From contig OZ316893.1 of the NCBI GenBank assembly GCA_973895155.1, forward strand, positions 8,394,963-8,458,962: a stretch of 64,000 nt of DNA, in the 5' to 3' direction. The position numbers were made by a program, and so were the translations under genes. Each line of letters starts with the position of its first letter. Position 1 is the first letter of the stretch. Positions 8,218 to 64,000 of the stretch are shown here, piece after piece. Under the pieces are notes generated by a model. The model did no database searches. It saw only the letters and a program-made list of their open reading frames with translations, and had not been told where the DNA came from. Source of the stretch: Marsupella aquatica (taxonomy: Eukaryota > Plantae > Marchantiophyta).

Positions 8218-8351
8218 AGGGCGTCTCAATATGAAAAAAACTTGCATACATGGGCGGCCCAAGATGCAGACAGGCACACCACGTCAGGGTTCAGGCGCCA
8301 ATATTCCCAGGCGCAGAAATATACTCATTCTCTCTATATGTGAGACACCCT
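8218..8351. mobile_element. 134-bp MITE with PHIS/Harbinger-type TIRs
   Basis: ATT|AGGGCGTCTCAA ... GTGAGACACCCT|ATT gives 12-bp TIRs with 2 mismatches and a 3-bp ATT duplication. The terminal motif is the same as in the elements at 57616-63496 and 57629-57930. Confidence 0.8.
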
Positions 8352-12779: not shown

Positions 12780-14240
12780 AAAATTATACCGTGTAATAAA
12801 TGATACACTCTGTGACGAGAGAATTAGAACACCACTTTACTGAAAAAGGACCAACAAAAGAATAAAAGATTTGGGTTTTGGGGCCTTTAGACAAATTCTT
12901 CTTCTTGACTCTCTTAAAGGAAAAACACATACTTTTTACAGAAAAGGGCCAAATAGAGTACAAAAGAATAAACAAGAGAGGTCCCAAATGGACAAAACCA
13001 AACGCAAAAGAAGTGAGCAAAAGGAAACCCCTAAAAACCAAGAAAGAGTAACTAAAACTACCGCAAATGGACCGAGGTCTTCATCATTCCTAGCAAATGT
13101 GACAAAAAGCTAATGGTCTACATCAAGTGTCGAAACTAAATTGGCAAGTGGGATTGGAATGTCCTCTAGGGGGGCTAGCCGTTGTGGAGTCACACTAGCA
13201 CCCATTGTCAGAGATCGACGATAGATGGCCCGAGCTTGAGCACGCTATAAGGTGACTGAAATGCGTTGGCAAAAGTGTGTGGTCAAAATAGATAGCGGGG
13301 GTCCAGTGGGACCCATCCGGCCGTGAACATCCCGAGCAGCTTGGCAAAGAAGCCCGTCAAACTGATGATGGAGACGCCCAAATATCTCAAGAGCAAGGGG
13401 CAGGAAGCTGTCAGATGAAGCTCGTGCAGCATATTTGGCCTCCTTCGTTGTTGCTGCTCGTGATGCTGCTGCCCCTGCCGTTGTTGCCGCTGTCCCAATG
13501 ATGTCTTGGCGCAATGGGTTTGCCACCACTACATCTGCCAAAGTACGGTGACCCTCACGGACCATGGTAAGATCCACCCGTAACCGTTGTGATGGAGGAC
13601 CAGGTAACTCGAGCACCACCTCCCGCCGTGCGCAGACCAAAGAGCCAGAAAGAACCTGAGCAGTGGCATCTCTCACAGCGTCGTGAACAAAAATGGTTTT
13701 GCCGCCCAAATTGCACCGAAGAAAATGGACACCTGTGGCATCACAAGGCTTCCCACAAGTGCAAGTAGGAGGTAAACCAACAAGAAGTGGGTGGGGCAAG
13801 CCCATACGAAGACGCATGGCTGTCGCAAACTCCACTGAAGACATCTGTAGGTGAGGAATGACTGGATTGGCCTGAAGCCAGCCTCCTGCGCCCTTCCCTC
13901 CGGAAGAAAGAATCCGAGCTCGGTCCATGTCAGGTGTCTCGTTGAGGATGCTGGAGAGGGTGAAAGCGTGCATACGCCCAGCAAGGTCTGCCTGAAGACG
14001 GATGGGGTCCAAGGATAAAAACTCCTGAAATGAAGGTAACGCAGCTCGAATAGGATCTGGTAATGATGACCGCGCCGCGCGCAAATGAACCTGAAATGGG
14101 AGAATAACAACCCAAATGCTGCCTGAGAATCTCCTAACTTAGGGAGCATAGGAGTAGGGGCTAAGGCAGCCTGTAGAGCGTCAGCAATGAAAGATGAGCA
14201 AAAGGAGGCGGTACCGACTGGGGAGCCAAAGACCCTTAAT
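12780..14240 (-). mobile_element. 5'-truncated CRE-clade-like non-LTR retrotransposon (zinc knuckle + restriction-like endonuclease)
   Basis: ORF 14084-13245 contains AGGWLQANP..LQMS..EF..AMRLRMG, the CCHC knuckle CTCG..HFLRC, VHDAVRD, RVDL..LADVVV (PD..D), KEAKY and FLPLALEIFG. It ends ISVTL*RAQARAI, where a premature stop replaces Q. This is the typical C-terminus of RLE-type retrotransposons. RT is absent and the boundaries are approximate. Confidence 0.85.
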
Positions 14241-17011: not shown

Positions 17012-18318
17012 GGTTCTAAATCTGGGGTTTTCTTCAGTGGCGAAATTTCGGCTTTAATCAGTATAAGAAATTAACGTAAGGAATGTCCTTACCATCTCAT
17101 CATTAGCCAAACTGGATTATTTTAAAAAATCCTTAGAAATTAGATTTTTATTAGTGGCAAAAATTCTCCACATTCCACCATGACACCTCCATCAGCTAAA
17201 ATTTGTCATTGAGCATGTTTCCATTGTGGCATCTCAAACCATGAAGTTTGAGAAAAAAAAATGAAGCCTGAAACTACCAGGTTTGGTCATGGGTTAGGAA
17301 TATGCTCATCGCAAGCAGAGGTAGAAACGAGACTCCCTATTAAATTTTGAGAAGTGAGACCTCCTATTAGGACATGTGAAAGCCGTGTCATAGCAAGGTC
17401 GTATATGACTTTCTGGATGTCGGTCCACACTGGGCATCTTTACAGGTAACCCGTGAAGTTTTGTCATGACCATAAAACCCCATTTCATATGTTTGATCGT
17501 AATCCAATGTCTAGTGACCGGCCACCCTGCCCTAGTGCCCTGCCCTGCCGAGCCCAGCCCCTCCCTTTTGTTCCGGCTGCCAGTTGAGGGCTGCCCGGCT
17601 CTTTTCCATGTTGGTCGGGCTGCCCTGCCCTGCCATTGGCCTGGCTCCGTTCTCCTTCTATTCCCTTTCCATTCCTGTCGTTTGCGCCGTTCACCGTCAT
17701 TCACATCATATTCGGTCCTCTGTCTCTGTCTCTTTTCTTCTCTTTTCTTCTCCCCTCGTCTCCTCTCCCTCGAGCTTTTCTCTCTCGAGTCTTCCGGTCT
17801 CCTCTCCTCTCCTCTCCTCTCCTCTTCTCTCCTCTTCTTCTTGTGTGTCCGCGTTGGTGCTCATTAATCAACAGCGCATTGTTGTTGGCTGGCTTGCTGG
17901 CTGGCTGTGCGGAGCGAGCGTCCTCTGCTGTTTGTTGTCGCTCGAATTGCGCCATCTTCCCGTCGACTGCGCACCACCATCACTGGGTTTCTTCGTCTGT
18001 TTCTGCTCGCTGCTGCTGCTTCTTCTGCTTCTTCTGCGTCTTCTGCTTCGTCGGCTTTGCTGCATCGCATCAGGGAGCGAGACGAGAGAGATCGTCGGTA
18101 GCATTATTCTCGGGAAAGTTTGGAGTACATTCGCGGAGACAGGACGAAGAAAGGAAGGAGTGTGGGAACGGGAGAAGGGAGAAGGGAGGGAGCGATCACC
18201 GACGAGCGCCGGAGAAAGAGATCGGCAGTGGAGTCTTGAGAGCATCGAGGAGGAGGGAGGAGGAGGGAAGAGTCGAGCGAGGTCGGCTGGACTCTGCTGT
18301 TTGTTTGCGTGCGCGGAG

Positions 18319-27384: not shown

Positions 27385-29900
27385 TGTTGAGCAAAGACCA
27401 CATTCACAATGGCAAGCCCATGAACATCCAATGCACAAGTAGTTACATAGAGAGATACGTGACTCATCTCAACAGTGGCTATGTTCACGGGAACACACGA
27501 GAGCTTTATTGCACTCTAGTGGGCACTCTAGGCCTGTCGGCCATACTGAGTCTCCGTAATACAAGATCTCTCTGTCTCTCAATTGGCTACATAACAATAA
27601 GTCTGAATTCCCCCTATCCAAGCAAACACACTTGGGATAAAGTGTGCATGCTTTTGGAATTGAATGGAAAAAAAACCTAGTTAACCTAACCTAGTCTGTA
27701 ACTAAGGTTAGCTCTAACTAAGATTGTAATTGCAACCCTAGATCTAAGAGTAAATACCTAACAATCTCACCCTTGATTCTGGTCTAAGGGAGGGTAATAT
27801 TGCTAACCTATATGATAAGTCAGGAGGATGTCATGGACAAAAACCAAATCGGTTTCCCCTCTTTAACTAGAGCAAACCATAAATAAGTCCTAGCCCAATA
27901 CATAGGAATGAGCAAGGGCATATATCGGTAATTACATAAATGTTAAGAAAACCCTACTTGTGACGCAATTGCAAAATCTGCAATGAATAGGTTTTTGCCT
28001 AGTAAAACTCTCCAAAAAAATTACTTTGGTAAAGGGATCAAGGTTGAGTTCACAGTAAATTAATTTTGACTAACGCAAAATGATTATCAGACGTAACCTA
28101 TTTGATAAAATGAGACCTAACAAGCCCAGAGAGGCATCACTTTGTGGTAGCTCACTTGAGTAGAGACTGATAGGTCTTGGGTTCAACTGTTGTGGGCTGA
28201 CTCTTCCCTTTATGTGGGGTTTCACAGATTTCCCTTTACAAAAAAATTAAAAAATAAAAATAATAATATGAGCTCTAACATCAATATGCTTCACTATGTT
28301 GTCCATCACCTAGTTCACAACAAGGAGGAGCGCACATTAACTATCACAATGGAACTTTACATCCCCAAATGATAATCTCATCTCAGTGATCAATCTATCC
28401 ATTCAACCTTGTTTCCTTTGCTGTTTTCATTGAACATAATTCGCTTTTGTAGTAGATTGAGCTATACACTTCTACAAAGTGGACCTCCAACTTATGCATC
28501 CACCATCAAGTGTGAACACATATCCTATTGCTGATCTCCTCCAGCCCAGATCTTGAGTAGAGTTAGCATCTACATAGTCTATCAATGATCTAGCATTATT
28601 TGCATGTACATCAAACAATAGATCAAAATCCACAGTACCCTTTGAGTACTTAAGAATCCACTTTATTGTTTCCCAGTTCCCTGGATTTAAAATGTACCTA
28701 CTCATCTTTCCCGACAAGATTGGGTCAAGTATAAGTCAATCAAATACATGAGACTCTCCGCTGCCTCATCATCAAGAACCTTTGACATCAGCCCCTTCTC
28801 TGTTACATATGTGGGACAAAAATTAAGTTGATAACACTCTCGATAACAATTTGAAGTGTGCAGCCAAATGGGTACTTATTGGCTTGTTGTCGCCCACATT
28901 GAAACTAACAATTACCTTCCTTGTATGATTGTCATGCATCAACCATAGCTTACCAGCCTCCAAGTCCCTAGTGATCTCCATACCCAAAATCCTCTTAATT
29001 GGCCCTATGTCCTTCATTTTAAATATTGCACTGAGCAGTGTTTTGAGCTTAACAATCTCAGATTTATCCATGGTCACAATAAGCATGTCATCCACATAAA
29101 ATACTAAAACAATGAACTTTAAGATAGCATTATTCACCAATTTTAGATACACACAAGGGTCAAACATACTCTTGTGAAAATTTTGTGCACAAAATCACTT
29201 ATTCAACTATCTTGGTGACTGCTTTAATATTACAAGGATTTTGAAAATTTATAAACCAACTTCTCTTGTCCTTCCTTCACAAAACCTAGCGGTTGTCTCA
29301 TGAAGATCACCTCTTCCAAGGTGCCATAGAAAAAAGTTGTGACAACATCCATCTAATCTAACAGCAGACCAAACATAACAACAAGTATACACAATAGTAG
29401 TATCATATAGTACTTAGCAACTGATGGAAAAACTTCATTGTAATCCACATTTTTTTCTTGTGTGAATCCCTTAGCTACCAATATAGCCTTGTAGACCTTT
29501 GATGCACCTCCTATGGACTAATCCTTCAACTTATAAAATCCACTTGTTGTCCACCACTTGTTGATCCTCAAGAGACTTAACAAGCTCCCAAGTTTTGTTA
29601 TCCTTCAATGATTGCATCTTCGTGTGCATTGCTATAGTCTACTCCTATTTATCCTTTGGAGCACTTGTCTCATGAAATGAAGAAGGTTCCCCTTCTACTA
29701 GAATTAATGTATCAGTTTCATCATCAGCAACAAAATTCTCTTCTTACAATTTAGATGAATTAACCCATTGTCCATACCTGGGAGGAGCGAGGGGAGGAGC
29801 GTGTACAGTGCGATCATATGTTCTTCTAGTTAATAACTCTAATTTTTTTGTGTTTGCTAATACAATTTAAAGTTCAACGGTGCTCACTAGCATCAATAAA
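27385..29900 (-). mobile_element. Truncated, degenerate Ty1/Copia LTR retrotransposon (RT-RNaseH remnants + 3' LTR)
   Basis: Minus-strand fragments include DPCVYLK..LVFYVDDMLI..FKMKDIG..ILGMEITRD (RT) and IDYVDAN..RRSAIGYVF..ISWRS (RNase H). A PPT (AAGGGTGAGAT on the minus strand) directly precedes the LTR at 27763-27385 (TGTT...AACA). No 5' LTR was found. Confidence 0.9.
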
Positions 29901-44297: not shown

Positions 44298-47200
44298 ATG
44301 GATACGCTGGAGCTAGTGCCTATGAAAGGCACGCAATTACAGCGCGTGGAAGATTTCGATGCTTCCAAGTTCCACATCAAGGTCTGGTTCCATTTTGCAT
44401 GATTGCAAAACCCTCTCCCCTCCCTACTTGAAAGCCACAAAGGCGATGTGAGCAAGGAAGAGCATTCTTCGGGTCGCACTTAGATAGTTTGTTTGTTTTA
44501 AATGTGTGCCTCACCCTTCACTCGTTCGTCTGTTACTGCCTGCCTTAGCGAAGCTCTCACCTGAAACTAACACAAACCTCCTGCTATCCAGGAATTGCGC
44601 ATTAAAGATTTACACAAAAATCTTTGTAAGAAATCACCATATTTTCACGTTAGACTTGTAAGTTCTTCTATCTCTCCCTTGTCAGCTTTGAGATTATTTC
44701 CGGTTGTTGGGTGTCCTTAGTTGTTGTGCCGTTTAGGTCACGCCTGGGGCTGTGTCAGTGACCTTCAATAATGGTGATCACTGAGTTTTTGCTTTCAGAT
44801 ACAAAGAGTGGGAAATTTGTTGATGTGGGGAAGATGGGATGGGCTCATGAACAAACAGGATTCACACAAGAGGACCTCTGCGGCTGAGCCAGCTGAACCG
44901 AATGGCAAGCTGCGTCGATCCAGTCTTGGAACCTCTGACGCAGATTATGAATCCTGCGAAGAGGACGGTGTGGCGTCTGTACCACAGGGGTCGACTTTAC
45001 CCGATCCAAGTGAAGCTCAGAGAGAGTTCTCAGCAGCTGAGGAGCAGCCCTCCAATCGCACGTCGAAGAGGAAAACACGGTTGCCTGGCAAGTTCCGCCT
45101 CGATTCCAATTCCTTTTCAGACTTCCCTGAAAGTTATTCGCGGTACTATAGACGTAGCACTTCAAAGCCCAAGGTAAAGCACCCTCGTTTGAAAGGAAAT
45201 CTTGATCCCGTTGAAACTCAGTTCTTCGAAGTTCCCATAGAAGCCCATGAAGTAGACTTACCGCAATGTGATACTGCTGCTACTGCCAGCAGTGGGGACC
45301 GCATTGATTTAGGTTCTTCCAAAGTTGCTGATTCCTACCCTTCTACACCTTCCGAGCGAAAGAAGTCCACCAGACCACTGAAACAAATCTTTCATTCTCC
45401 ATCGTCCAGCCAAAAACGACACCCAACACCTAAACAATCCAGGGTCAGCGTTGATTACTCCGAGGTAGGCCCCCTCCTGCTCGTCATTCATATTTTTAAA
45501 TTTTGCGCTTTGAGCTCTCCGGCAATTATTACCAGATATTTAGACACTGAATTGAAATTTGACTGCTTTCCCTCTTAGAAACGCCATGCAAGTGAGTCTA
45601 ACATTGCACATGAACTGAATGCAGTGTATGCAAGTCAGTACCGACACCGAGCCTCATGAAGGGTATTTTTACTACTATGTCGTTTTCGTTGGCATGCGTA
45701 GCACTATTTGACAAACTTCCATTTCAGTATCATTTTGAAAATTCGTGAGAATGCACATGAAGAGTTTATTCACGTTCTAGTTATTGTGAGATGGTTTCGC
45801 ATTGCCTTCTGATGTTATTCTCGTAACATGCAGTCCGAGCAAAACTCCTATAACCAGCAGCACGAAATGGAAGCATAGCTCTTCTGATGCCAACCCAAAG
45901 GAGATTCTCCCGAATGGAAAGAGGAAACTTGAGAACGGATTTAAGGGAAAGACAAGCAGTAGCGGGAGTAAAGGTCCAGAAAGGAAGAGCAAGCCTCTTG
46001 AGAGAAAATTGCAACGAACCTACAACGCTCCGAATGGAAGTACAGAGGAGATATTGCCCGTGAGATGGATGCTTGATTCACCTGATGTCAGTGTGGAGAG
46101 GATTCTGTCCACAGAATTGAAGAGAATTCGTGAGAGCAAACTGGAAGAGAAGAAACGCAGGATTATGGAGAGCAATCTGAAAGAAAAGAAAAGTAAGATT
46201 CTCGAGAGCGAATCGAAACGGAGCTATCATGCTCCACAGGCCAGCACGGAGGGCACCCTTCCCATGGGACGGAAATACCAAACTTCTGATCCCAGTATTG
46301 CAAAGAGGACACTCGATAGCAAATCGAAGGACAAGAAAATCAGGACTGTTGAGAGCAGAGGGAAAGAAAGGAAGAGCAGGACTCTGGAGGGCGAATCGAA
46401 ACATGGACACAATGCTCCAAATGCTAGTAGAGAGGACACTGTACCCATGAAGTGGAGACTAACCAAAGAGAAGTCGGCCCTTGAGAGAAAATGGAAAGGA
46501 AAAAGTAATAGGACTAGTGAGAGTCAATTGAAAGAAAAGACGAGAACTGTGGATAAGGGATTGTTGAAACTGTGCTATCATGATCGTGATGGCAGCACGG
46601 AGAACATTCTGCCCCTGGAGCGGGAACACCGCTATTCTGATGCGAGCATGGAGGAGATTCTGCCCACTGAAAAAAAAAAAATTCCTGACAGGAAATTGAA
46701 AGAAAAGACGAAGCCTGCCGAATTTAAATCGAAGGAAAAGAAACCCAAGACGAAGCCTGCCGAATCTAAATCGAAGGAAAAGAAACCCAAGACGAAACAG
46801 AGCACCGATGGTCCTGACGCCAAAGATGCGAAACCATCACGGAGAGTTAGTACTCCAATCAGGAAACTGAAAAGTGGTTATACCTCTGAGGATCGCTCGA
46901 GTGACTTGGAGCGAGATACGGATGGTCCCGGGATCAGTCATCCTACTTTCGCCACTGAGATGAAATATTCCAACGTAGTCAAGTGCTTCTGGATGGTAAG
47001 GAATTGCCGGGATAAACACACACTCCTCTTGTTCCTCTTATTGGAGCTTCTAGTTTTGCACAATCACCGGAACTGATTGTGGTTTTGGCCTTGCAGGGTA
47101 TTCCAGCAAATTTCAGTACCAGGCATATGCCAAATCACGATCAGTTTATAGTTCTTCAAGATGCTGAGGGTCTGAAATGGGAAGCCAACTACCTGGCTAG

Positions 47201-48325
47201 AAAGAAGGGTCTCAGCGGTGGATGGCGCCGGTTTGCATTGGACCATCATTTGGAGATGGGAGATATTGTCGTATTCGAGTTGGTCAAGCCTCTAAAGTTC
47301 CTGGTTTGTAAAACTTTCCAATAACGACCAGGAAAGGTTACATGTAGATGAGCGGTCCTCGTAGAATTTCAAAGTTTCTATTTGGATGCTAAGAAAATTT
47401 ATGGAGGGATGCTAGAAATCATTCCTGCCTAGAGCTGTTGGGCTCATTTATTCTGTACTTAGGAAACAACGCTCTTTTCCCCTACTGTTTGTTCATTAGG
47501 CCACTGCGAATTCAGGCAGACAGTCTCACTTCAATCAGGATTTGTGCTCGTAGATTCTCACCAGAAGTAGCCGCTGCATAACACATTTGCAAAGTTCCAG
47601 CTTTCCACACTCGTCTGCCGTACCCTGTCTGAGGCCTTGACAATTGATCGTGCTCTGATTGACAGGTACATATTACTAAAATATCTGGAGGTGAAAGTCC
47701 AACTGCCCCAACTCATCACCCAGTTCGAGAAACTCCGAAGAAAGTGCTCAAACCTCAGGCTTTCGTTGGCACTAAGAGGTTCTCTTCCTTTGAGTCTGCC
47801 CTGTTTTCTAACAGGAAGAGGGTGAACAAAGATGCTGAAGGCAAGCTTCCCAGCAAGAAGTCCCGTTTGGCTGGTGACGATAAGAAAGATCGAGGAGGTA
47901 AAGAGCGGGAATCTGTGGCAATGGCACCAGCAGCAGAACCGAATCGCCTGTTTTACCCCGGAGCGTTAAAAAGAAACCGGAAGGTTGCCAGAAAAGCGAC
48001 TGACCACGATGAGGATCAGGGTGCTCTGCTGACCTTTGAAGACAGTGAAGGTGAAGAGGCGCTTGAGACTAAGAGAGGGCCGTTAGCCCCCAAATTCAGG
48101 CGTCTGAGCAGTACGGAGGATGATAGGAGAGACTCCAATGCAGGGATCGATGTACAAGAGTTGCGATTGACTATTTATGAGGAACCTGCAATTGTGTCCA
48201 GCTTGGAGCCACAAAAAGCAAAAGCTGAACCTCACTCTCCCAAACCAGGACCTAAAAAGAAGCTCAGGCGGGTGAGCTATTTTTATTCCACAGATGAGGA
48301 CCAAGGCAATTCCATTAGTGCGTGA
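44298..48325 (+). CDS. B3 DNA-binding domain protein (REM-like) with long Lys/Ser-rich disordered regions
   Basis: Phase-consistent exons lie at about 44298-44381, 44799-45464, 45579-45625, 45834-46995, 47097-47303 and 47666-48325. The B3 domain reads HPTFATEMKYSNVVKCFWM|GIPANFSTRHMP..IVLQDAEGLKWEANYLARKKGLSGGWRRFALDHHLEMGDIVVFELVKPLKFL|VHI. The first exon is less certain. Confidence 0.85.
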
Positions 48326-55400: not shown

Positions 55401-57037
55401 AACGAGATGCATATTCCCCCACATGCCTACGATGTTTGAATTCCAACATCTACAGCTGGAGAGCTGAAAGCAATTACCACGAACCTGAAGGGACACTCTC
55501 ATTGTAAGTGCGTGACAGGCCAAATCAGTAACCTTGCAATGTAGGCCAGAGCAACTGATAATAACGGTCCTATTCTTTGTTATTTCTCGTTCAATTCTTA
55601 CATACCCATTCCTGCCTACTGCGGATTTTCCATCAACGCCTTTGACAGGCGAAGCACTTGAACCCCGTTTCTCTGCATTCGCTTTGTTGGACTCTTCTCT
55701 TGCAAGCTGCAGCAAACACGCAACAGAAAGTTAGACGAACGACGAAGTACAAAAGATAAATTTGTAATTTGCAGTTCAAGGGTGAAGCATCACAAGACTT
55801 ACTTGTCTACGCTGACGCTCTTCCTCTGCATCTTTCTCCTGCTCCTCTTTCTTGCGCATAACCTCAGATAAGATTCTGTCTTTCTCTTCCTGCAGCAGTA
55901 CCAACATTTAATCAAAGCTTACATTTGACAAGCAGACCAACTCCGACTCTAGAATGGCAGGCCTCTGAAAGTAAACTTCCACCCTCTAACCTTCTTCTTC
56001 TTTGCCTCTTCTGCCTTGGCATCGAGGAACTGCTGAGGAACACCGCTGAGGTTGTTCTGCGCGCTAGTGAGGAGGCCCCAGAGCTCCTTCATGAATCTCC
56101 CCGTATTCTTTTCCATGAAACCCGTGAGCTGAATCTGAAGGTGCTTCCCATCTGCCTCCTGCCAAACACAAGGGCTTGAATGAGATCGCAAGGGAGGACA
56201 AAGTGGGGATCCCCATATCTTCGGGCCAGGATAGAATAACTACCTTCACATCAAGTAAGCCGTAGATAAAGTTAATCAACACTTCGTCTTCGAACCCCAG
56301 AAGCTCAGTTACTCTGGTAGCAATCCATGGCTTGATTACGTCAATTTTAACTTTAGACATCTCCACCTGCACACGCATCGCAATATACCCAAAATGCCCA
56401 TAAGATGCGAGTGCGCTCTTACAGTCACGCGTCCTCCACCCGCGTCGACATGAAAGCTCGGACAACACAGGCCGCAAAACAGAAAATGTTCGAAGATCGA
56501 TTTGATGCAACCTCAGACAAACGTGAACCCTAATCAAGACAAGGGATAGAGAATTGCACTAACCAGAACATCCAGCTCAGGAGCAAATTTCTGGCTCTTC
56601 AAAAGTTTCGACATCTTGTTGGAAAATCGAGTGTCCTGGTCCGCAGACGTCCCCTGGAACAATAACAAAACGAGGAGCCACGTGCGGTACACGATGAGCA
56701 CCTCGTCAGCAATCCGTCCGTTATAACTCCAAAATTCTCCGCACAAACGCAAACAGGCACCACAATTCCACGGAATCTCAACTGCACACTGCGCCCCACA
56801 CAAACACCAAATCTCACGGGCACAATTTGCCCCTTTCAACGACACTTTCCCCGCTGACCAGACTCGAGCCCCGGGTGAAAATATCAACCAGCCACGCACA
56901 GACGATCCATCCACAGTCTACCAACACAAGAGTACACAACCTCAAACCAATCGCACCCTGCGCCACATCTCCACTTCTCTCCAAAGAAAGCAAATAAATT
57001 CGGGAGCAGAACAAACCCTAAAGAAACCGCCCGACAT
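52424..57037 (-). CDS. SRRM1: SRm160/SRRM1 PWI-domain serine/arginine repetitive matrix splicing factor
   Basis: The PWI domain reads MSGGFFR (57037-57017) | GTSADQDTRFSNKMSKLLKSQKFAPEL | VEMSKVKIDVIKPWIATRVTELLGFEDEVLINFIYGLL | DGKHLQIQLTGFMEKNTGRFMKELWGLLTSAQ. RS/RSP-rich exons follow (about 54916-54851, 54261-53917, 53747-53365). The C-terminus is ERELRNKALESLRAKK. Confidence 0.93.
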
Positions 57038-57482: not shown

Positions 57483-57628
57483 TCGGTCTTCTCCTGACTC
57501 GAGCAGCTGCTGACGCAGACTGCGCCACTCTACCAACCGCAGTGACCACTTCGACTACGGTTCGTACTCTACTGCGCGGTGAAGGACCGCAGCTCGCGAA
57601 TCCGGTCAGAACATTAGGGGGTCTCAAT

Positions 57629-57930
57629 AGGGCGTCTCAAACTTAAGCATTTGGAATTCCGAATGGCACCCGGGATTTCACACTCGCGGGCCGCCCGGAT
57701 CAGGTGGTCGGCCCACCGATTTGGTGACCGGAAAGTTTTTACCGGGTTTTTTTGGTTACAATTTTGCTTTGGAAAAACCCCGTGTCGGGACTCCTTTTAG
57801 GTGCGAGGTAAAGTTCAGACCCCGGTTTTTTGGGACCCGATATTGGGTACCGGTGTTCAATATCGGGCGGCGACCAGAGACATTCGGGTGACCGGAAGGA
57901 GTCCTAGAACGCGCAGGGTTGAGACGCCCT
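57629..57930. mobile_element. 302-bp MITE nested in the left TIR of the Harbinger-like element
   Basis: AAT|AGGGCGTCTCAA ... TTGAGACGCCCT|AAT gives perfect 12-bp TIRs and an AAT duplication. The interior is GC-rich with repeated ACCGG/CCCG motifs. Confidence 0.92.
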
Positions 57931-59142
57931 AATTATTCGCCCGCGTGCCCATACGGGCTGCCCAGTTAAGGCCCAAAACGGACGTCCGCCAAAAGGGTGC
58001 AGGCGTCCGAAACCCTGGTCGTCACAAATCCGGCCCGGGAGCCAACGAAGTCCCGTGACCGTTTGGCACCCGATTTAGTTGCGACTTGCCGTGCCCTGCT
58101 CCTGGGTCCAAGGGCAACGTCGAGCACACTATGCGAGCTGCTTCGCCGAACGCTGCTCTGTCGATCCACCCTCTAGCTATGGCTGCTCATCGCTCATGGA
58201 AGACGATGAGACATTCGCGACTTCGCGGCTCCTGAAGGGAAGGGTAGGGAAGGAGGGAGGGAGGCAGCGCCAACACAGCTGCTCGAGAGCTCCGGTGTTC
58301 ATGATCGATCGTCAAAGGAGAGAGGTGGACAAAAGAAGGACTCGATCGCTGCAGGTGCGATTCTGCTGAGACTTTATCAACTCTGAGAGGTGCTCTTATG
58401 TTTCATTTCATAAGCCAATTAACAGATTAGGTCTTTCTCCCTTAAATTTGATAATACATGGATTGCTTTTCACTGCCATCGACATAACAGAGAATTGAAT
58501 TTCTTGTGCTCCCTATTATTTTGTCGATTGGGGAGGTGCTACTGTAGGATTCGTTAATGCTCGCTCCTCTCCTCTCCTCTCCTCCCCTGCATTTTGGTCA
58601 TATGCCTTGCTATTTGTGGGTTCGATTGGAGGGCCAGCATCTTCCCATTATATTGTTCAGGCTCCCGCCCCCGCATGAGCGCTATTGCTACCTGCATTTT
58701 GGTCGTCTACCTTGATAAATTTGTGGGTTCGATTGGAGGGCCAGCTTCTTCTCCAAATTTACGTGATTGAGGCTGTTGCATTTTGAATAGTAGGTTTGCT
58801 ATCTTGATCAAGAAGTGTAAGGCAAATCGTGAAACAAAACTGTCGCGTGGTGAAGTGTTTCCTCTATCAGAATCAAGATAGTATCTATAGAGTAGTGTGC
58901 GTAGTTGGCTATGGCATGAAGATGAGATTGGGGTCCCCTGCCGGCCACTGCAAATGTAACGCAGTGGCCACAAGTTTCGTACTTGGCTATGGCATGACAA
59001 TGAGATTGGGGCCCCCGTTCCCGCCGCTGGCCACTGCACACGCAAATCAGTTGACAGAACATGGGGACAGGCCTTGTAAATCCTTTGAACTTGACTTTAA
59101 ACGTACAAGATTAGCATGATTTTACACATTCTAATGGAACTG

Positions 59143-59312
59143 CAGGAGCAGAAGCAGACGAAGCAGGAGCAGACAAAGCAGCTACAGCAGGAGCAGACAA
59201 AGCAGCTACAGCGGGAGCAGACGGTGTAGGAGCGGGAGCATGGAGCAGGAGCAGACGAAGCAGCTGGAGCGGGAGCGGGAGCAGGAGCAGACGAAGTAGC
59301 TGGAGCAGGAGC
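59143..59312. repeat. GCAGGA/GCAGAC-type low-complexity repeat inside the transposon
   Basis: The sequence reads gcaggagcagaagcagacgaagcaggagcagacaaagcagctacagcaggagc... Confidence 0.8.
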
Positions 59313-59490
59313 AACAGTCTCTATTCGAACCCAACTGAATTTGGTACTTTGAGTCTCACTGGATATACAATTTATATGCAAGCTACAGGGTCCTCTCAGT
59401 TTACACATGAGCCAGAAGTTATGAACTTGAGATTTATCATTTACAATACAAACTTTTGTTGTTGCAGGATTATAGAGTTGTTGGTCCACA

Positions 59491-60991
59491 ATGCCAAAAG
59501 TTTCCAACTGGCAAGATTGTTTGAATTGGGTCAAACAGCAACTCCATTTGAGTATTCTAGTGCAATCGGATAGTGACAGTGATGGCATGTCAGTTTATGA
59601 TGATAGCATGTCTTCTATAAGTAGTGGATTCTTAGCAGAGGATACCAATTTGGAGTTGGACTCTTCCAGTGATTCTAAGAGAGGAGCTTTGACTGATCCA
59701 CTTGATGTGGATTCCACTCCAACAGAATGGTTGGAATTAAATGCCCTTCTAGACAGTGAAAGATATTTCAGTAAGCAAAGCAAGCGAGTGCAATCCAAGG
59801 AATTTCAAGCAGATTTTTTTAGATACCTTTGTCCACCTGACTTGTTTAGGCAGATGCTTCGGATGGACAGGGATGCCTTTTGGAATCTACATGGATTGAT
59901 TGAAATGCATCCTGTGTTTTCTAACAACTCTTTCCATGAGCAAGCTCCTGTATGTCTGCAATTGGCCACCTGTTTAGACAGGTTAGGCCATAATGGGAAT
60001 GGAGTGTGCCTCAAATGAACTTTGTTGATGTGGGGCATCAGCAATGGCTCCTGTGTTAACTATACCAACAGAGTCATTACTGCACTTGAATCCGCCCTTG
60101 GTGATATTATTAGTTGGCCTGGAAGGGAGGAACGAATGATCATTTCTACAGAATTTGCTAAGAAAGGATTTCAAGGGTGTGTCGGTTTGATTGATGGTAC
60201 CACAATGCCATTGACGCAGCGTCCCAAGGATCACGTTGAGTGTTATTATGACAGGAAGTCTTGCTACAGCATCAATGCACAAATCGTTTGCGACCACAAC
60301 AGAAAGATAATTTACCTAGATGCTGGTAAGTTCACAAACTCAAACCATGATTTATATGTGAATTCCAAACTAAGTTGAGGTTTAATGCAACCATGTTAAT
60401 TTGTTTAGGGTTCACTGGATTGCAGGGAATGTTGGCTCATGTTCGGACATCACCTGCTTGAAGCGGTGTATTCTATGGGACAAACTTCATGGGCAGTTTG
60501 CGTTTGATGAAGGGCAGTATATTCTGGGTGATTCTGGCTACCAAAGCGCTCCACACACGGTGTCAGCTTACAAAAATTGGTATGGCTGCAAATAGAAAGA
60601 GGATTTCAATTTTTGTATAGCCAAAACAAGGTATGTTAACGAGCATTGCATTGGAGTGCTGAAGTCCCGCTGGTTCTCTCTTAAAGAGATTCAAACTCAG
60701 CTGAATCGGAAGAAAGACAACATCTGGATGTGTCGATGGATTAGGGCCTGTGCAATGTTGCACAACTTTGTTCTTAGTCAGCATGATGAATGGACGGAAG
60801 CAGACTTACTAGAGAACCCGGTAGATGTCCTTGAAGATGAGACTCGCAATCTAGACCCATGTAGATCGACGAGCCTAGCAAGAAATAGGAGGGCTCGAGT
60901 TGCAGGCCGGAATCTGTTGTGTGCAGTCATGGCTAGAAGTTTAGAATTCAATAGAGCCCAAGGTGGTTGCCTATGGGAAGCTAGGCAGTAG
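59491..60991 (+). pseudogene. Harbinger/HARBI1-type DDE (DDE_Tnp_4) transposase, inactivated
   Basis: Motifs are FRQMLRMDRDAFWNL, QAPVCLQLATCLDRLGHNGNG, GLIDGTTMPL (D), YYDRKSCYSINAQIVCD, YILGDSGY (D), RYVNEHCIGVLKSRWFSL (E) and ACAMLHNF. A GT-AG intron lies at 60326-60425. In-frame stops are TGA at 60016 and TAG at 60593. Confidence 0.92.
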
Positions 60992-61412
60992 AGTCATGAG
61001 TAATTTCATGACTAATTTCATTGTTACAAGCTTGTAATTTAGAGAACTGAAATTAGAAAGGCAGAGTTTCCCCTTAGCCTGATACTCTCATTGTTGAGAC
61101 CCGATTGTTACTACATTGATTCCCGACTGCTGAAAAGTTATCATTTCATACTCAAAAACAGACAGGATCCTAGCAACAATTCTATCCACTCCAAAGCAAG
61201 TAAGCACTTGACTTACGACTCTTCTTTCTTGCACAGAGCAAGAACAAATGAAAATTCATTCAACAACAATCCCAACAGATGAAAGAAACAATATAAACTT
61301 GCTTTATATAAAAATGTTTACAAGTATAATACACTAGGTGGAAATTTATAAGTGTCGTGCCATTAACTCATATTTGGCATGTTTATGCTAATATACCAAA
61401 TGAGAAAAAAAT

Positions 61413-63080
61413 CTAAAGGAAAGTGTTATCTGTTGCAAAGATATCAGGTTGCGGAGGAGGGGAAGGGTCGACAGATTTCATTAAAGATCCAATCTGGGCT
61501 TCTGTTTTTCCGCTTCTAAACAAATCGGATAGCAACTGAGTTTTCATGCTCAGGTTGGCCATAAATATGGCATGCTGCTGATCAGCACGTTGTCTTTTTG
61601 CAACCTGGGATGCAGTGAATTTTTCAAGCTTCAATTTGTGCTGCCGGTCAAGTCGCTTGTCCTTCGCAACCAATCCTCTGGCTACATGACGATAGTCTAA
61701 TTCTTGTTTCTTCCATTGCATTTTGCTGTTGATTAGGTCCTTCTGGAACTCACTTTTCTCCTTGCGCTTGTCTGCATACATAGACGTCAAAGTGCCCTTT
61801 GAGGTGGCACTTCCTTCTGGGGTCATCCTCTTTTTTTGCACAGACGATGCCTTAGTATTTGAGGCATGGCCCACTTGGGCAGTACTCGGAACATTAGTTC
61901 GACCTGATACTGGTGCTGGTTGTCCTGCAACAGAATTGGGAGGCACACTTTGTGGTGTCGCATGTTGTGCTAGCCGGTTCTGAGGCACCCTCACCTCCTC
62001 TGATGGTGGGGGTGGTTGGGGCTCAGTATGGAAGCAGTCATCATCACGCATTGGAGAAGGGATGGTGTAATCGGGAAACTGTGCAACAAGTCGTCCTCTA
62101 GAGTTGTTGGGGAATTAGTGATAATTGACACTCATAAATGAAATCAGCCATAGAAGATTAAAGGAATAAATTAAAGAACTCCAAAAGTGAAGTCTTTTTG
62201 GACAATGAAAATAAAGTTTGCTATTGGCAATGAAGTCGGTAATAATCATCAAAAAGCTTGCAGCATGAAGCATCAAATGCATTCAGGCACGGATATGTAT
62301 ATCGTGTAACTCTGGCAATCTCATTATTACCAGCCATGATGTGGGTTGGAGAAGCCGGTTGAACCATTTCGCAATCACTGTCTTCGATGTCTGCATTGTC
62401 GTCCTCGGCATCTATGCTGATTGTAATTCCAGAATTGTGAAAACCTGACGAGACTGTAGTGGGTGGAGCCACGTTGGCTCGTTCACCAAGAATGCTATGC
62501 ATCCAATCAAAATGTGGACACATCTTGTCCAATTTCCCTCAATTGTCATTCCAATCACGATTTCCTCCTCAGTCAATCCACCCCCGCTCTGGTTCTTCAC
62601 CAACAATGCCTTCCGATACATCTCCTGATATCTACCACATTGCTTGCCCAGATTTGCTCCATCCATAGCTGGAAATCCGTGTTGAGCTAAGATGACGACC
62701 ATAGATGCAAAAGCTGTCTTCTTGTTATGATACTTGGCCCCTATCCGAGTTTTCCTACCTGATCCATGGATTGCATCGAAGTGCTCTGGAACCTCTATGT
62801 AATCAAGAATCTTTGAATAATCATCATACTTCAATTTCATGCCGCTGCCCCCAGGAAATCTAGACATTGAGCTTCTCCATGTAGTTTGTAACATTTCGCC
62901 TTCAATTAGAGTTGTTGGTTGAACAGGACGTGGAGGAATAAAAGCCCTAGTTGGAGCTCTATGACAAGACGAATTAGTGGGAGTGGGAGACTGAGGTGAC
63001 TTGAGAGGGCTTGCATTCAGGTCATGGATTTCCATAGAGCATTGAGAAGAAAGAGGAGAGTTGGAATTGATGTGCTCCAT
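61413..63080 (-). pseudogene. Harbinger accessory (Myb/SANT-like DNA-binding) protein, frameshifted
   Basis: The sequence reads LKYDDYSKILDYIEVPEHFDAIHGSG..KKTAFASM..RYQEMYRKAL..SGGGLTEEE..GMTIE[1-nt frameshift at about 62535]KLDKMCPHFDWMHSILGERANV. A probable intron lies at about 62100-62300, followed by a charged coiled-coil-like C-terminal exon. It is convergent with the transposase inside the TIRs. Confidence 0.75.
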
Positions 63081-64000
63081 GTTTGAGTCTTGAGATGAAA
63101 TGCAATAATAAAAGAGGGAAGAGTGCTACGTTGTTTTTCCCTGGCCCATCCCTTGAGGTTCGTTAAAAAATGGGGCCCTATACATATTACCATTTTAGTG
63201 GTTCTTCAGGTTGTTGCCCATCCCTCGAGGTTTGTTCAAAAACGTGCCATGTACATATTCCATTAATAGTGCAGAAGGACAGTGATGGCAGACCGTCTCA
63301 AAATTCCCCCCCCCTTTTTAGTGGGCGTCATCCTTGGTCCGTAATAGGCGTCATCGCGGCTTCCTCTTGGCGGGCCTTCTCAAAATCTCCCCCCCCCCCA
63401 CTTGCATAGAGTCCATACTGGAAGCTCGGGGCCCTTGTAGTGGCCTTGCTCCCGGCCCCGTCTTGGCAGACCGGGGTCTCATAATTGAGACCCTCTATTG
63501 ACGAACCCTTGACTGCAACTACGGCAGACCAACCGGCTCTTTCCTACAGCGTTGATGTACCGGTATCTCCCAGTAGTGAATTGTATGATACCATGGACTG
63601 CGTTAATGTCTACCACATTTGTTCTTTCCACCATAGTAGTACCCCAGAGTGTGTGGTTAAACTACCACTATCCATATAAATATCGCTTGCGCCAAGACCT
63701 GGGCGGTTCATTTTCTCCTTGTGCCCGGCGAAGGCTCAGCAAACGAGTTCCAGCCCTAGCCAGAGGGCTCTATAATACCTGTTGGGTTAGCGAGTTTGCC
63801 AAAAAGTTTTTTGCTCCTATGCATTTGTCAGGTAGGTTTGTGACTGCCTTTGTGAGCATGAAAGTTGCTATGCTGCCATAGCCATGGGGGTTCCTCGGTG
63901 AGCTGGGCTCAAAAATCTTCTACCTTAGACGTGTTTGATACCTACAGATTTCATTGCTGTCATGCAAACCCTCGTCGACGCTTAACCACGTACTTGGGTT

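What the first reader, a model, noticed from the sequence alone, without database searches (positions are those of the whole stretch)
57616..63496. Complete PHIS transposon with non-canonical AWT target duplication and fungal/oomycete-like proteins (candidate Pangu-type element in a land plant)
Seen: both TIRs, an ATT duplication, a DDE transposase and a convergent accessory ORF. Canonical plant PIF/Harbinger/Pong elements make TAA/TTA duplications, and that reading fails here (TTA on the left, TAT on the right). From memory, the Pangu group of the PHIS superfamily makes ANT duplications and was reported mainly from fungi, stramenopiles, red algae and invertebrates. The accessory motif GGGLTEEE..I..KL..MCP.F..M..ILG.R.NV and the transposase motif RLGHNGNG resemble, to my eye, rust-fungus and oomycete TE proteins more than angiosperm PIF. 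Inference: this is a PHIS lineage that is poorly described in land plants, either retained from ancestors or horizontally acquired.
Basis: partly seen in the sequence, partly recalled or inferred. Interest (0 to 1): 0.8.

Follow-up and report, generated by a model that had tools for sequence, protein, structure and literature searches.

The report
Pangu-type transposon in a land plant
This is a broken 5.9-kb two-gene cut-and-paste transposon that, like two miniature relatives nearby, duplicates ATT or AAT rather than the TTA/TAA of familiar plant elements; it likely belongs to the Pangu group, known from fungi, algae and animals, and its closest named relatives are in liverworts and then water moulds.

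Summary
Observation confirmed and strengthened. The element spans 57616-63496, is flanked by ATT, and carries a DDE_Tnp_4 transposase (466 codons, one intron, two stops) and a convergent, frameshifted accessory gene. A second MITE (8218-8351) has ATT. All 7 of 7 terminus-motif matches in the window abut ATT/AAT (shuffles: at most 1). An empty allele in three public runs leaves the window exactly at 57615. The transposase groups with liverwort proteins (Calypogeia, Riccia; 100/100), then Phytophthora-type proteins (99/97); no seed plant is among 47 species-named hits of 120 listed. A distant complete relative also has ATT and the same accessory family, whose predicted fold best matches Myb-derived trihelix domains. 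Ends, target and gene layout fit Pangu (Repbase Harbinger2), whose 34 published families include no land plant. Not tested: a tree with named Pangu, PIF, Pong or Nuwa references. Horizontal transfer versus ancient retention is unresolved (AU p 0.055, 0.46). Verdict: new member of a known group, apparently in a new host lineage.

The parts
57613..57615 (.). left target-site duplication ATT
   Evidence: sequence; empty-allele contigs in X1, X4, X5 match up to 57615 and leave there
57616..57933 (+). left TIR (16 bp when uninterrupted: 57616-57628 plus the 3 bases after 57933), split by the nested MITE and its duplicated AAT
   Evidence: 15 of 16 match to the right TIR after removing the MITE and one AAT; other copies lack the MITE (loose ends before 57931)
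57629..57930 (.). nested 302-bp MITE, 12-bp perfect TIR AGGGCGTCTCAA, AAT duplication (57626-57628 and 57931-57933)
   Evidence: far higher summed contig depth than the flank
59142..59313 (+). degenerate tandem repeat upstream of the transposase ORF, role unknown
   Evidence: family D1
59491..60325 (+). transposase exon 1 (acidic N-terminus, RLGHNGNG region, first D at codon 235); stop at codon 176
60326..60425 (+). 100-bp GT..AG intron (inferred from homology; several relatives' predicted proteins run off at the same Gly)
60426..60991 (+). transposase exon 2 (D314, E351); stop at codon 335
61413..62114 (-). accessory gene, C-terminal open frame (Pro-rich linker, charged helical tail); splice sites between about 62300 and 62080 not resolved
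62221..62538 (-). accessory gene, middle piece after the frameshift (KLDKMCP...GERANV)
62541..63080 (-). accessory gene, N-terminal piece with predicted Myb/SANT-trihelix-like domain; frameshift near 62540
   Evidence: fold inferred from the L001 homologue
63144..63396 (+). subterminal direct repeats (27 and 29 bp pairs), candidate accessory-protein binding sites, untested
   Evidence: families D7, D9
63481..63496 (-). right TIR
63497..63499 (.). right target-site duplication ATT
8218..8351 (.). second, separate 134-bp MITE with the same terminal motif and an ATT duplication

Best explanation
It is a degenerate copy of a two-gene PHIS (PIF/Harbinger-type) cut-and-paste DNA transposon with AWT target duplications, likely of the Pangu/Harbinger2 group and likely in a seed-free land plant. 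Shown: ends, ATT duplication, DDE transposase and convergent accessory gene, both broken; related MITEs with the same ends; other copies and an empty allele. Inferred mechanism, by analogy with PIF/Pong/Harbinger3: the accessory protein's Myb/SANT-trihelix-like domain binds (sub)terminal repeats and recruits the DDE transposase, which excises the element and inserts it by a 3-nt staggered cut at A-W-T; gap repair gives the duplication. This copy cannot encode working proteins; the MITEs, and an internally deleted derivative seen in reads, were likely moved in trans by an intact family member, and one MITE landed on the AAT inside this element's own TIR. The lineage is likely long resident in liverworts and sits among oomycete and fungal elements.
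For: AWT: three insertions; 7 of 7 motif matches abut AWT, shuffle maximum 1; TIR restored to 15/16 on removing the MITE plus one AAT; empty-allele contigs stop at 57615 in 3 of 4 runs and rejoin at 63554 in 2 of 4 runs, about 55 letters apart against 54 expected for a single ATT and 57 for no duplication; flank consensus of MITE-free copies is ATT in 4 of 4 runs, and ATT, ATT, AAT in the 3 of 4 runs that list it. Family trait: L001, 38.5% identical, is a complete 4.6-kb element with ATT duplication, GGGGGGTTTCAA ends and a homologous convergent accessory ORF; L029/L030 (26-29%) have ACT. Pangu definition: ANT, TIR 11-40 bp starting AG/GG, two ORFs, second without known motif; Melampsora families AWT, TIR 13 and 24 bp, transposase 487 and 438 aa. 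Relatives: liverworts 100/100, with Phytophthora-type rows 99/97. Accessory fold: top three of 48,161 chains are Sap1 (Z 7.7, rmsd 4.5, 104 aligned), GT-1 trihelix (6.8, 3.8, 77), Zeste (6.7, 3.1, 70). Host: B3 domain at 47016-47321; contigs bridge both junctions with 0-1 mismatches.
Against: No named Pangu, PIF, Pong, Nuwa or ISL2EU transposase is in any tree here; rows were top hits of a liverwort-built profile, so exclusion of canonical plant clades is indirect (202 of 322 hits were not listed). Atlas ranks a Streptophyta 'ALP1-like' cluster level with diatom and basidiomycete clusters (all 0.97). The letters of the empty site were not shown and the count is off by one. Flank data are consensuses, not per-copy tallies; no genome was available. 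The fold model is of a homologue, pLDDT 66, and Z under 8 can be a common helical arrangement; Foldseek gave nothing at E<=0.001. The host is placed only as a green plant by a tool; land plant and seed-free are inferred.
Confidence: 0.8

Rival explanations
1. An AWT-targeting PHIS lineage of its own (or a branch of canonical Harbinger/Nuwa) that reached ANT preference independently of Han's Pangu clade; same mechanism, different name.
For: No Pangu reference was placed; the ACT-duplicating elements L025/L026 sit on a very long branch far from the window's clade; accessory fold is Myb-like as in PIF/Nuwa; PHIS deep nodes are weakly supported in print (passage).
Against: Han et al. define groups by target duplication and found ANT elements to form one clade, including AWT families from Melampsora, Tuber and Talaromyces and ANT families from Phytophthora and Puccinia; Phytophthora and rust fungi are the relatives found here; two Pangu families also carry Myb_DNA-bind_4.
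Confidence: 0.14
2. An ordinary plant PIF/Pong element whose TTA/TAA duplication has mutated or whose ends were misplaced by one base.
For: Left flank can be read TTA; Pfam family PF13359 is shared with PIF/Pong; plant ALP1-like clusters score 0.96-0.97 in the Atlas.
Against: Right flank would be TAT; empty allele leaves at 57615, not 57616; 7 of 7 ends abut AWT; 0 of 47 species-named hits are seed plants; no DUF8040 or DUF8418 hit in 16 proteins scanned, families that mark the plant clusters.
Confidence: 0.03
3. Fungal or oomycete contaminant sequence assembled into a plant contig.
For: Proteins resemble fungal and oomycete elements; bryophytes host such organisms (own knowledge).
Against: Contigs bridge both junctions (X5 57497-57654, X3 63196-64000, X4 and X5 63196-63612); an empty allele of the same locus exists; MITEs with the same ends lie elsewhere in the window; relatives are on 3-67 Mb liverwort scaffolds.
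Confidence: 0.02

Closest known systems
Pangu group of the PHIS superfamily (Han et al. 2015, PMC4482050; = Repbase Harbinger2 per PMC12730594), especially Pangu-1_MLP/Harbinger-1_MLP and Pangu-2_MLP/Harbinger-3_MLP of Melampsora
   Same: 3-bp ANT/AWT duplication, short TIR starting AG, two ORFs, DDE_Tnp_4 transposase of 440-490 aa, second ORF without Pfam hit, 4-6 kb
   Different: Host is a green, likely land, plant (none among 34 families in 15 species of Table S3); copy is pseudogenised with a nested MITE; sequence relationship to the named families not tested
Canonical PIF/Harbinger and Pong with Tourist-like MITEs
   Same: DDE_Tnp_4 transposase, Myb/SANT-like partner (predicted), 3-bp duplication, MITE derivatives moved in trans
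   Different: Duplication is AWT, not TWA; partner has no Pfam Myb hit; no seed-plant protein among species-named top hits
Uncharacterised DDE_Tnp_4 proteins of Calypogeia fissa, Riccia sorocarpa and R. fluitans
   Same: One clade with the window's transposase (100/100), 47-54% identity over the longer alignments
   Different: Annotated only as unnamed or hypothetical proteins; their ends and duplications could not be read here
NuwaI/NuwaII, PHISTA, ISL2EU, Spy
   Same: PHIS-type DDE transposase
   Different: Their targets are CWG, C|TNA|G, TA, AT and none; no YqaJ or TET/JBP gene seen here

Membership tests
PHIS superfamily | DDE transposase alignable with PIF/Harbinger/IS5 catalytic region | tested here: met
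   PF13359 above cut-off on three pieces; D235, D314, E351; weak IS5-family hits
Pangu (Harbinger2) | 3-bp ANT target duplication confirmed by empty site | tested here: met
   ATT, AAT, ATT; internal empty site; empty allele boundary at 57615 (intervening letters not shown)
Pangu (Harbinger2) | TIR 11-40 bp beginning AG or GG | tested here: met
   16 bp, 15 matching, begins AG
Pangu (Harbinger2) | two ORFs, second usually without a known motif | tested here: met
   convergent ORF with 0 Pfam families; tail-to-tail layout as in Ectocarpus Harbingers (passage)
Pangu (Harbinger2) | transposase falls in the Pangu clade of a DDE tree | not testable with these tools
   no named Pangu/Repbase sequence could be fetched; tree of 75 rows places it with Phytophthora and fungal proteins whose group is not established
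canonical PIF/Harbinger and Pong | TWA target duplication | tested here: not met
canonical PIF/Harbinger and Pong | Myb/SANT accessory protein | tested here: inconclusive
   no Pfam hit; Atlas Myb/SANT rows at 0.81-0.82 only; fold of homologue best matches Sap1, GT-1, Zeste at Z 6.7-7.7
canonical PIF/Harbinger and Pong | transposase nests among plant PIF/Pong clades | tested here: inconclusive
   0 of 47 species-named hits from seed plants, but no canonical reference in the tree
NuwaI / NuwaII | CWG or C|TNA|G target | tested here: not met
   AWT at all ends
ISL2EU / PHISTA / Spy | 2-bp AT, 2-bp TA or no duplication | tested here: not met
   3-bp repeat at three insertions; removing one AAT restores the TIR

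The most novel reading that the evidence does not exclude
A Pangu-type lineage crossed kingdoms from an oomycete (or fungal) associate into early liverworts, diversified there with its own MITE families, is absent from seed plants, and was mobile recently enough to leave filled and empty alleles beside a splicing-factor gene; its 'motif-less' second protein is a cryptic trihelix DNA-binding partner, giving plants a native AWT-targeting two-component transposon system.
Probability: 0.3. Interest if true: 0.7.

Novelty: new member of a known kind. Interest (0 to 1): 0.45.

Why it matters
It would extend the Pangu/Harbinger2 group to land plants, where annotation by the TWA rule (own knowledge of common pipelines) would miss or mis-trim these elements and their MITEs. 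The liverwort clade's position next to Phytophthora elements makes it a concrete candidate for old cross-kingdom transposon transfer, testable with bryophyte genomes. The predicted trihelix fold offers an answer to what Pangu's second ORF does, which Han et al. left open. The mechanism itself is not new.

Tried and rejected
No genome held, so no genome-wide TSD table. Generic TIR-plus-duplication scan not above chance. No relatives in viral contigs, prokaryote genomes by the single-protein scan or PDB sequences; no Rfam match. Foldseek: no match at E<=0.001. Accessory C-terminal comparison with L001 not significant (E 0.18). Accessory search of longer proteins gave 1 hit among 445 candidates; near-length and shorter proteins were not searched. 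Host lineage look-up by the CAF1 protein found no exact record. Donor tests: plant plus fungal clade not rejected (p-AU 0.055); the four Phytophthora-type rows as one clade not rejected (p-AU 0.459), so nesting inside oomycetes seen in the first quick tree is not claimed. Both groups were named after seeing the tree. Of 35 metagenome loci only L001, L029 and L030 gave convincing paired ends; 13-bp candidates in L006 and L021 were set aside as likely chance. The Newick tree of PMC12730594 was cut on display, so plant Harbinger2 entries in it could not be seen. One accessory piece was translated in the wrong frame; conclusions there rest on P0122 and the middle piece. The tree used 57 of 153 rows plus 18 locus rows, chosen by hand to thin Riccia and unnamed clades.
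Full report
Observation. The element runs from 57616 to 63496 with ATT on both sides. The transposase starts at 59491, has a 100-bp GT..AG intron at 60326-60425, 466 codons with stops at 176 and 335, and keeps D235, D314 and E351; PF13359 matches three pieces. The convergent gene starts at 63080 on the minus strand and is frameshifted near 62540; no Pfam family matches it. The copy is structurally complete but dead.

Target duplication. A 302-bp MITE (57629-57930, 12-bp perfect TIR) lies inside the left TIR between two AAT; removing it and one AAT extends the TIR match to 15 of 16 bases, an empty-site control within the element. A second MITE at 8218-8351 has ATT. All 7 matches to the terminal motif in the window abut ATT or AAT; 200 shuffles gave at most 1. 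A generic TIR-plus-duplication scan was not above chance (8 real, 2-10 in 12 shuffles), so the case rests on the shared motif and the empty sites. Public contigs (5 runs listed; 4 laid in each) show an empty allele: in X1, X4 and X5 a contig follows 57490-57615 (10 differences, 6 gaps) and leaves exactly there; in X4 and X5 a joint goes from 57615 to 63554. Taking these as the same contigs (equal depths, 31.5 and 84.5), 114 letters follow 57615, of which the last 59 map to 63554-63612, leaving 55 against 54 expected for one ATT and 57 for no duplication; the letters were not shown. The boundary excludes the TTA register. MITE-free copies have an ATT flank consensus in 4 of 4 runs (2-5 contigs each), and ATT, ATT, AAT in the three runs listing it. 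A joint 58090-63286 in 2 of 4 runs indicates an internally deleted derivative. Contigs bridge both junctions, so the element is in the plant locus.

Host. A B3 domain (E 2e-14; a green-plant family, own knowledge), with CAF1, RMI2, a diflavin reductase and a PWI (SRRM1-like) gene, marks a green plant. Seed-free land plant is inferred from the relatives and from recalled likeness of the host genes; no tool placed it. The element ends 579 bp upstream of the SRRM1-like start codon at 57037.

Relatives. The single-sequence search gave 6 hits, 4 with species names, all liverworts. A profile built from these gave 322 hits, 120 listed; 47 carry a species: 36 liverwort (Calypogeia 5, Riccia 31), 8 fungal, 2 Phytophthora, 1 tardigrade, no other plant. 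Of 29 representatives looked up by choice, 10 had species names: 5 Phytophthora, 4 fungi, 1 Riccia. Identity is 47% to Calypogeia P0009, 49% to Riccia P0017 and 35-39% to Phytophthora rubi, Entomortierella and Puccinia. In the careful tree (75 rows, 286 columns, IS5-family outgroup) window plus liverwort rows form a clade of 12 (100/100) inside a clade of 16 with three Phytophthora rows and one unnamed row (99/97); a mostly fungal clade of 15 lies nearby. AU tests do not settle the donor (p 0.055; p 0.459). An N-terminal tree has 31 rows in the plant-type clade (99), many unnamed and diverse, so the lineage is not a recent single transfer. No named PIF, Pong, Nuwa or Pangu protein could be fetched, and the Atlas ranks plant ALP1-like clusters level with diatom and basidiomycete ones.

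Family trait. Of 35 metagenome loci, L001 holds a complete 4.6-kb relative (38.5% identity) with ATT duplication, similar G-rich ends and a convergent accessory ORF homologous through P0122 (E 2e-11); L007 has the same layout; L029/L030 (26-29%) have ACT. The L001 accessory domain, modelled with window pieces in the alignment (pLDDT 66), best matches Sap1, GT-1 trihelix and Zeste (Z 7.7, 6.8, 6.7); Foldseek was not significant. This is a consistent but moderate sign of a diverged Myb/SANT-trihelix domain.

Mechanism. Shown: cut-and-paste anatomy, 3-bp AWT duplication, derivatives. [quoted passage not shown] A staggered cut at AWT and gap repair give the duplication (own knowledge). MITEs were likely mobilised in trans.

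Comparison with print. Han et al. 2015 (PMC4482050; parts 1-3 of 4 of the text and all 34 Pangu rows of Table S3 read) define Pangu by ANT, TIRs of 11-40 bp starting AG/GG and a motif-less second ORF, in 15 species; the abstract says 'plants', but the table holds only a red and a brown alga. PMC12730594 equates Pangu with Repbase Harbinger2 (passages; its tree file was cut). PMC12477816 reports ANT Harbingers in Ectocarpus (passages). Nine searches (listings only, apart from the papers named) found no report of Pangu in land plants; Repbase and subscription journals were not searchable and may hold one. An earlier scan note on a Naegleria Pangu-type element was not checked and is no support.

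Verdict. New member of a known group, apparently in an unreported host lineage; Pangu-type 0.8; cross-kingdom transfer 0.3; interest 0.45.

Noticed in passing
window 13248-14138 (-): 297-aa open frame with Cys/His knuckle and restriction-like endonuclease-type motifs, resembling from memory the C-terminus of a CRE/R2-like non-LTR retrotransposon; no convincing Pfam hit.
   Followed up: partly
window 17330-17365: Solo right end with the same terminal motif followed by ATT, plus a second motif-like copy 26 bp upstream; no partner left end within 9 kb.
   Followed up: partly
window 28826-29194 (-): Copia-type reverse transcriptase fragment, RVT_2.
   Followed up: no
window 57490-57615 and 63196-63612: In X4 and X5 filled and empty alleles have about equal contig depth (30.3 vs 31.5; 86.9 vs 84.5) and the empty one differs by about 8%: a hint of two diverged subgenomes or haplotypes; depth is not copy number.
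   Followed up: partly
window 63528-64000: Right flank is itself repetitive (summed depth up to several hundred and many loose ends near 63958), probably another element.
   Followed up: no
window 44778-48322 (+): B3-domain gene with long charged low-complexity exons, REM-like by recall.
   Followed up: no
L029 659-5651; L030 737-5732: Complete 5-kb GC-rich PHIS elements with 18-bp TIR and ACT duplication, only 26-29% identical to the window's transposase.
   Followed up: partly
L001 4126-4671 (-): A further 181-aa frame with Cys pairs inside the L001 element, upstream of its accessory gene; possibly a third gene.
   Followed up: no
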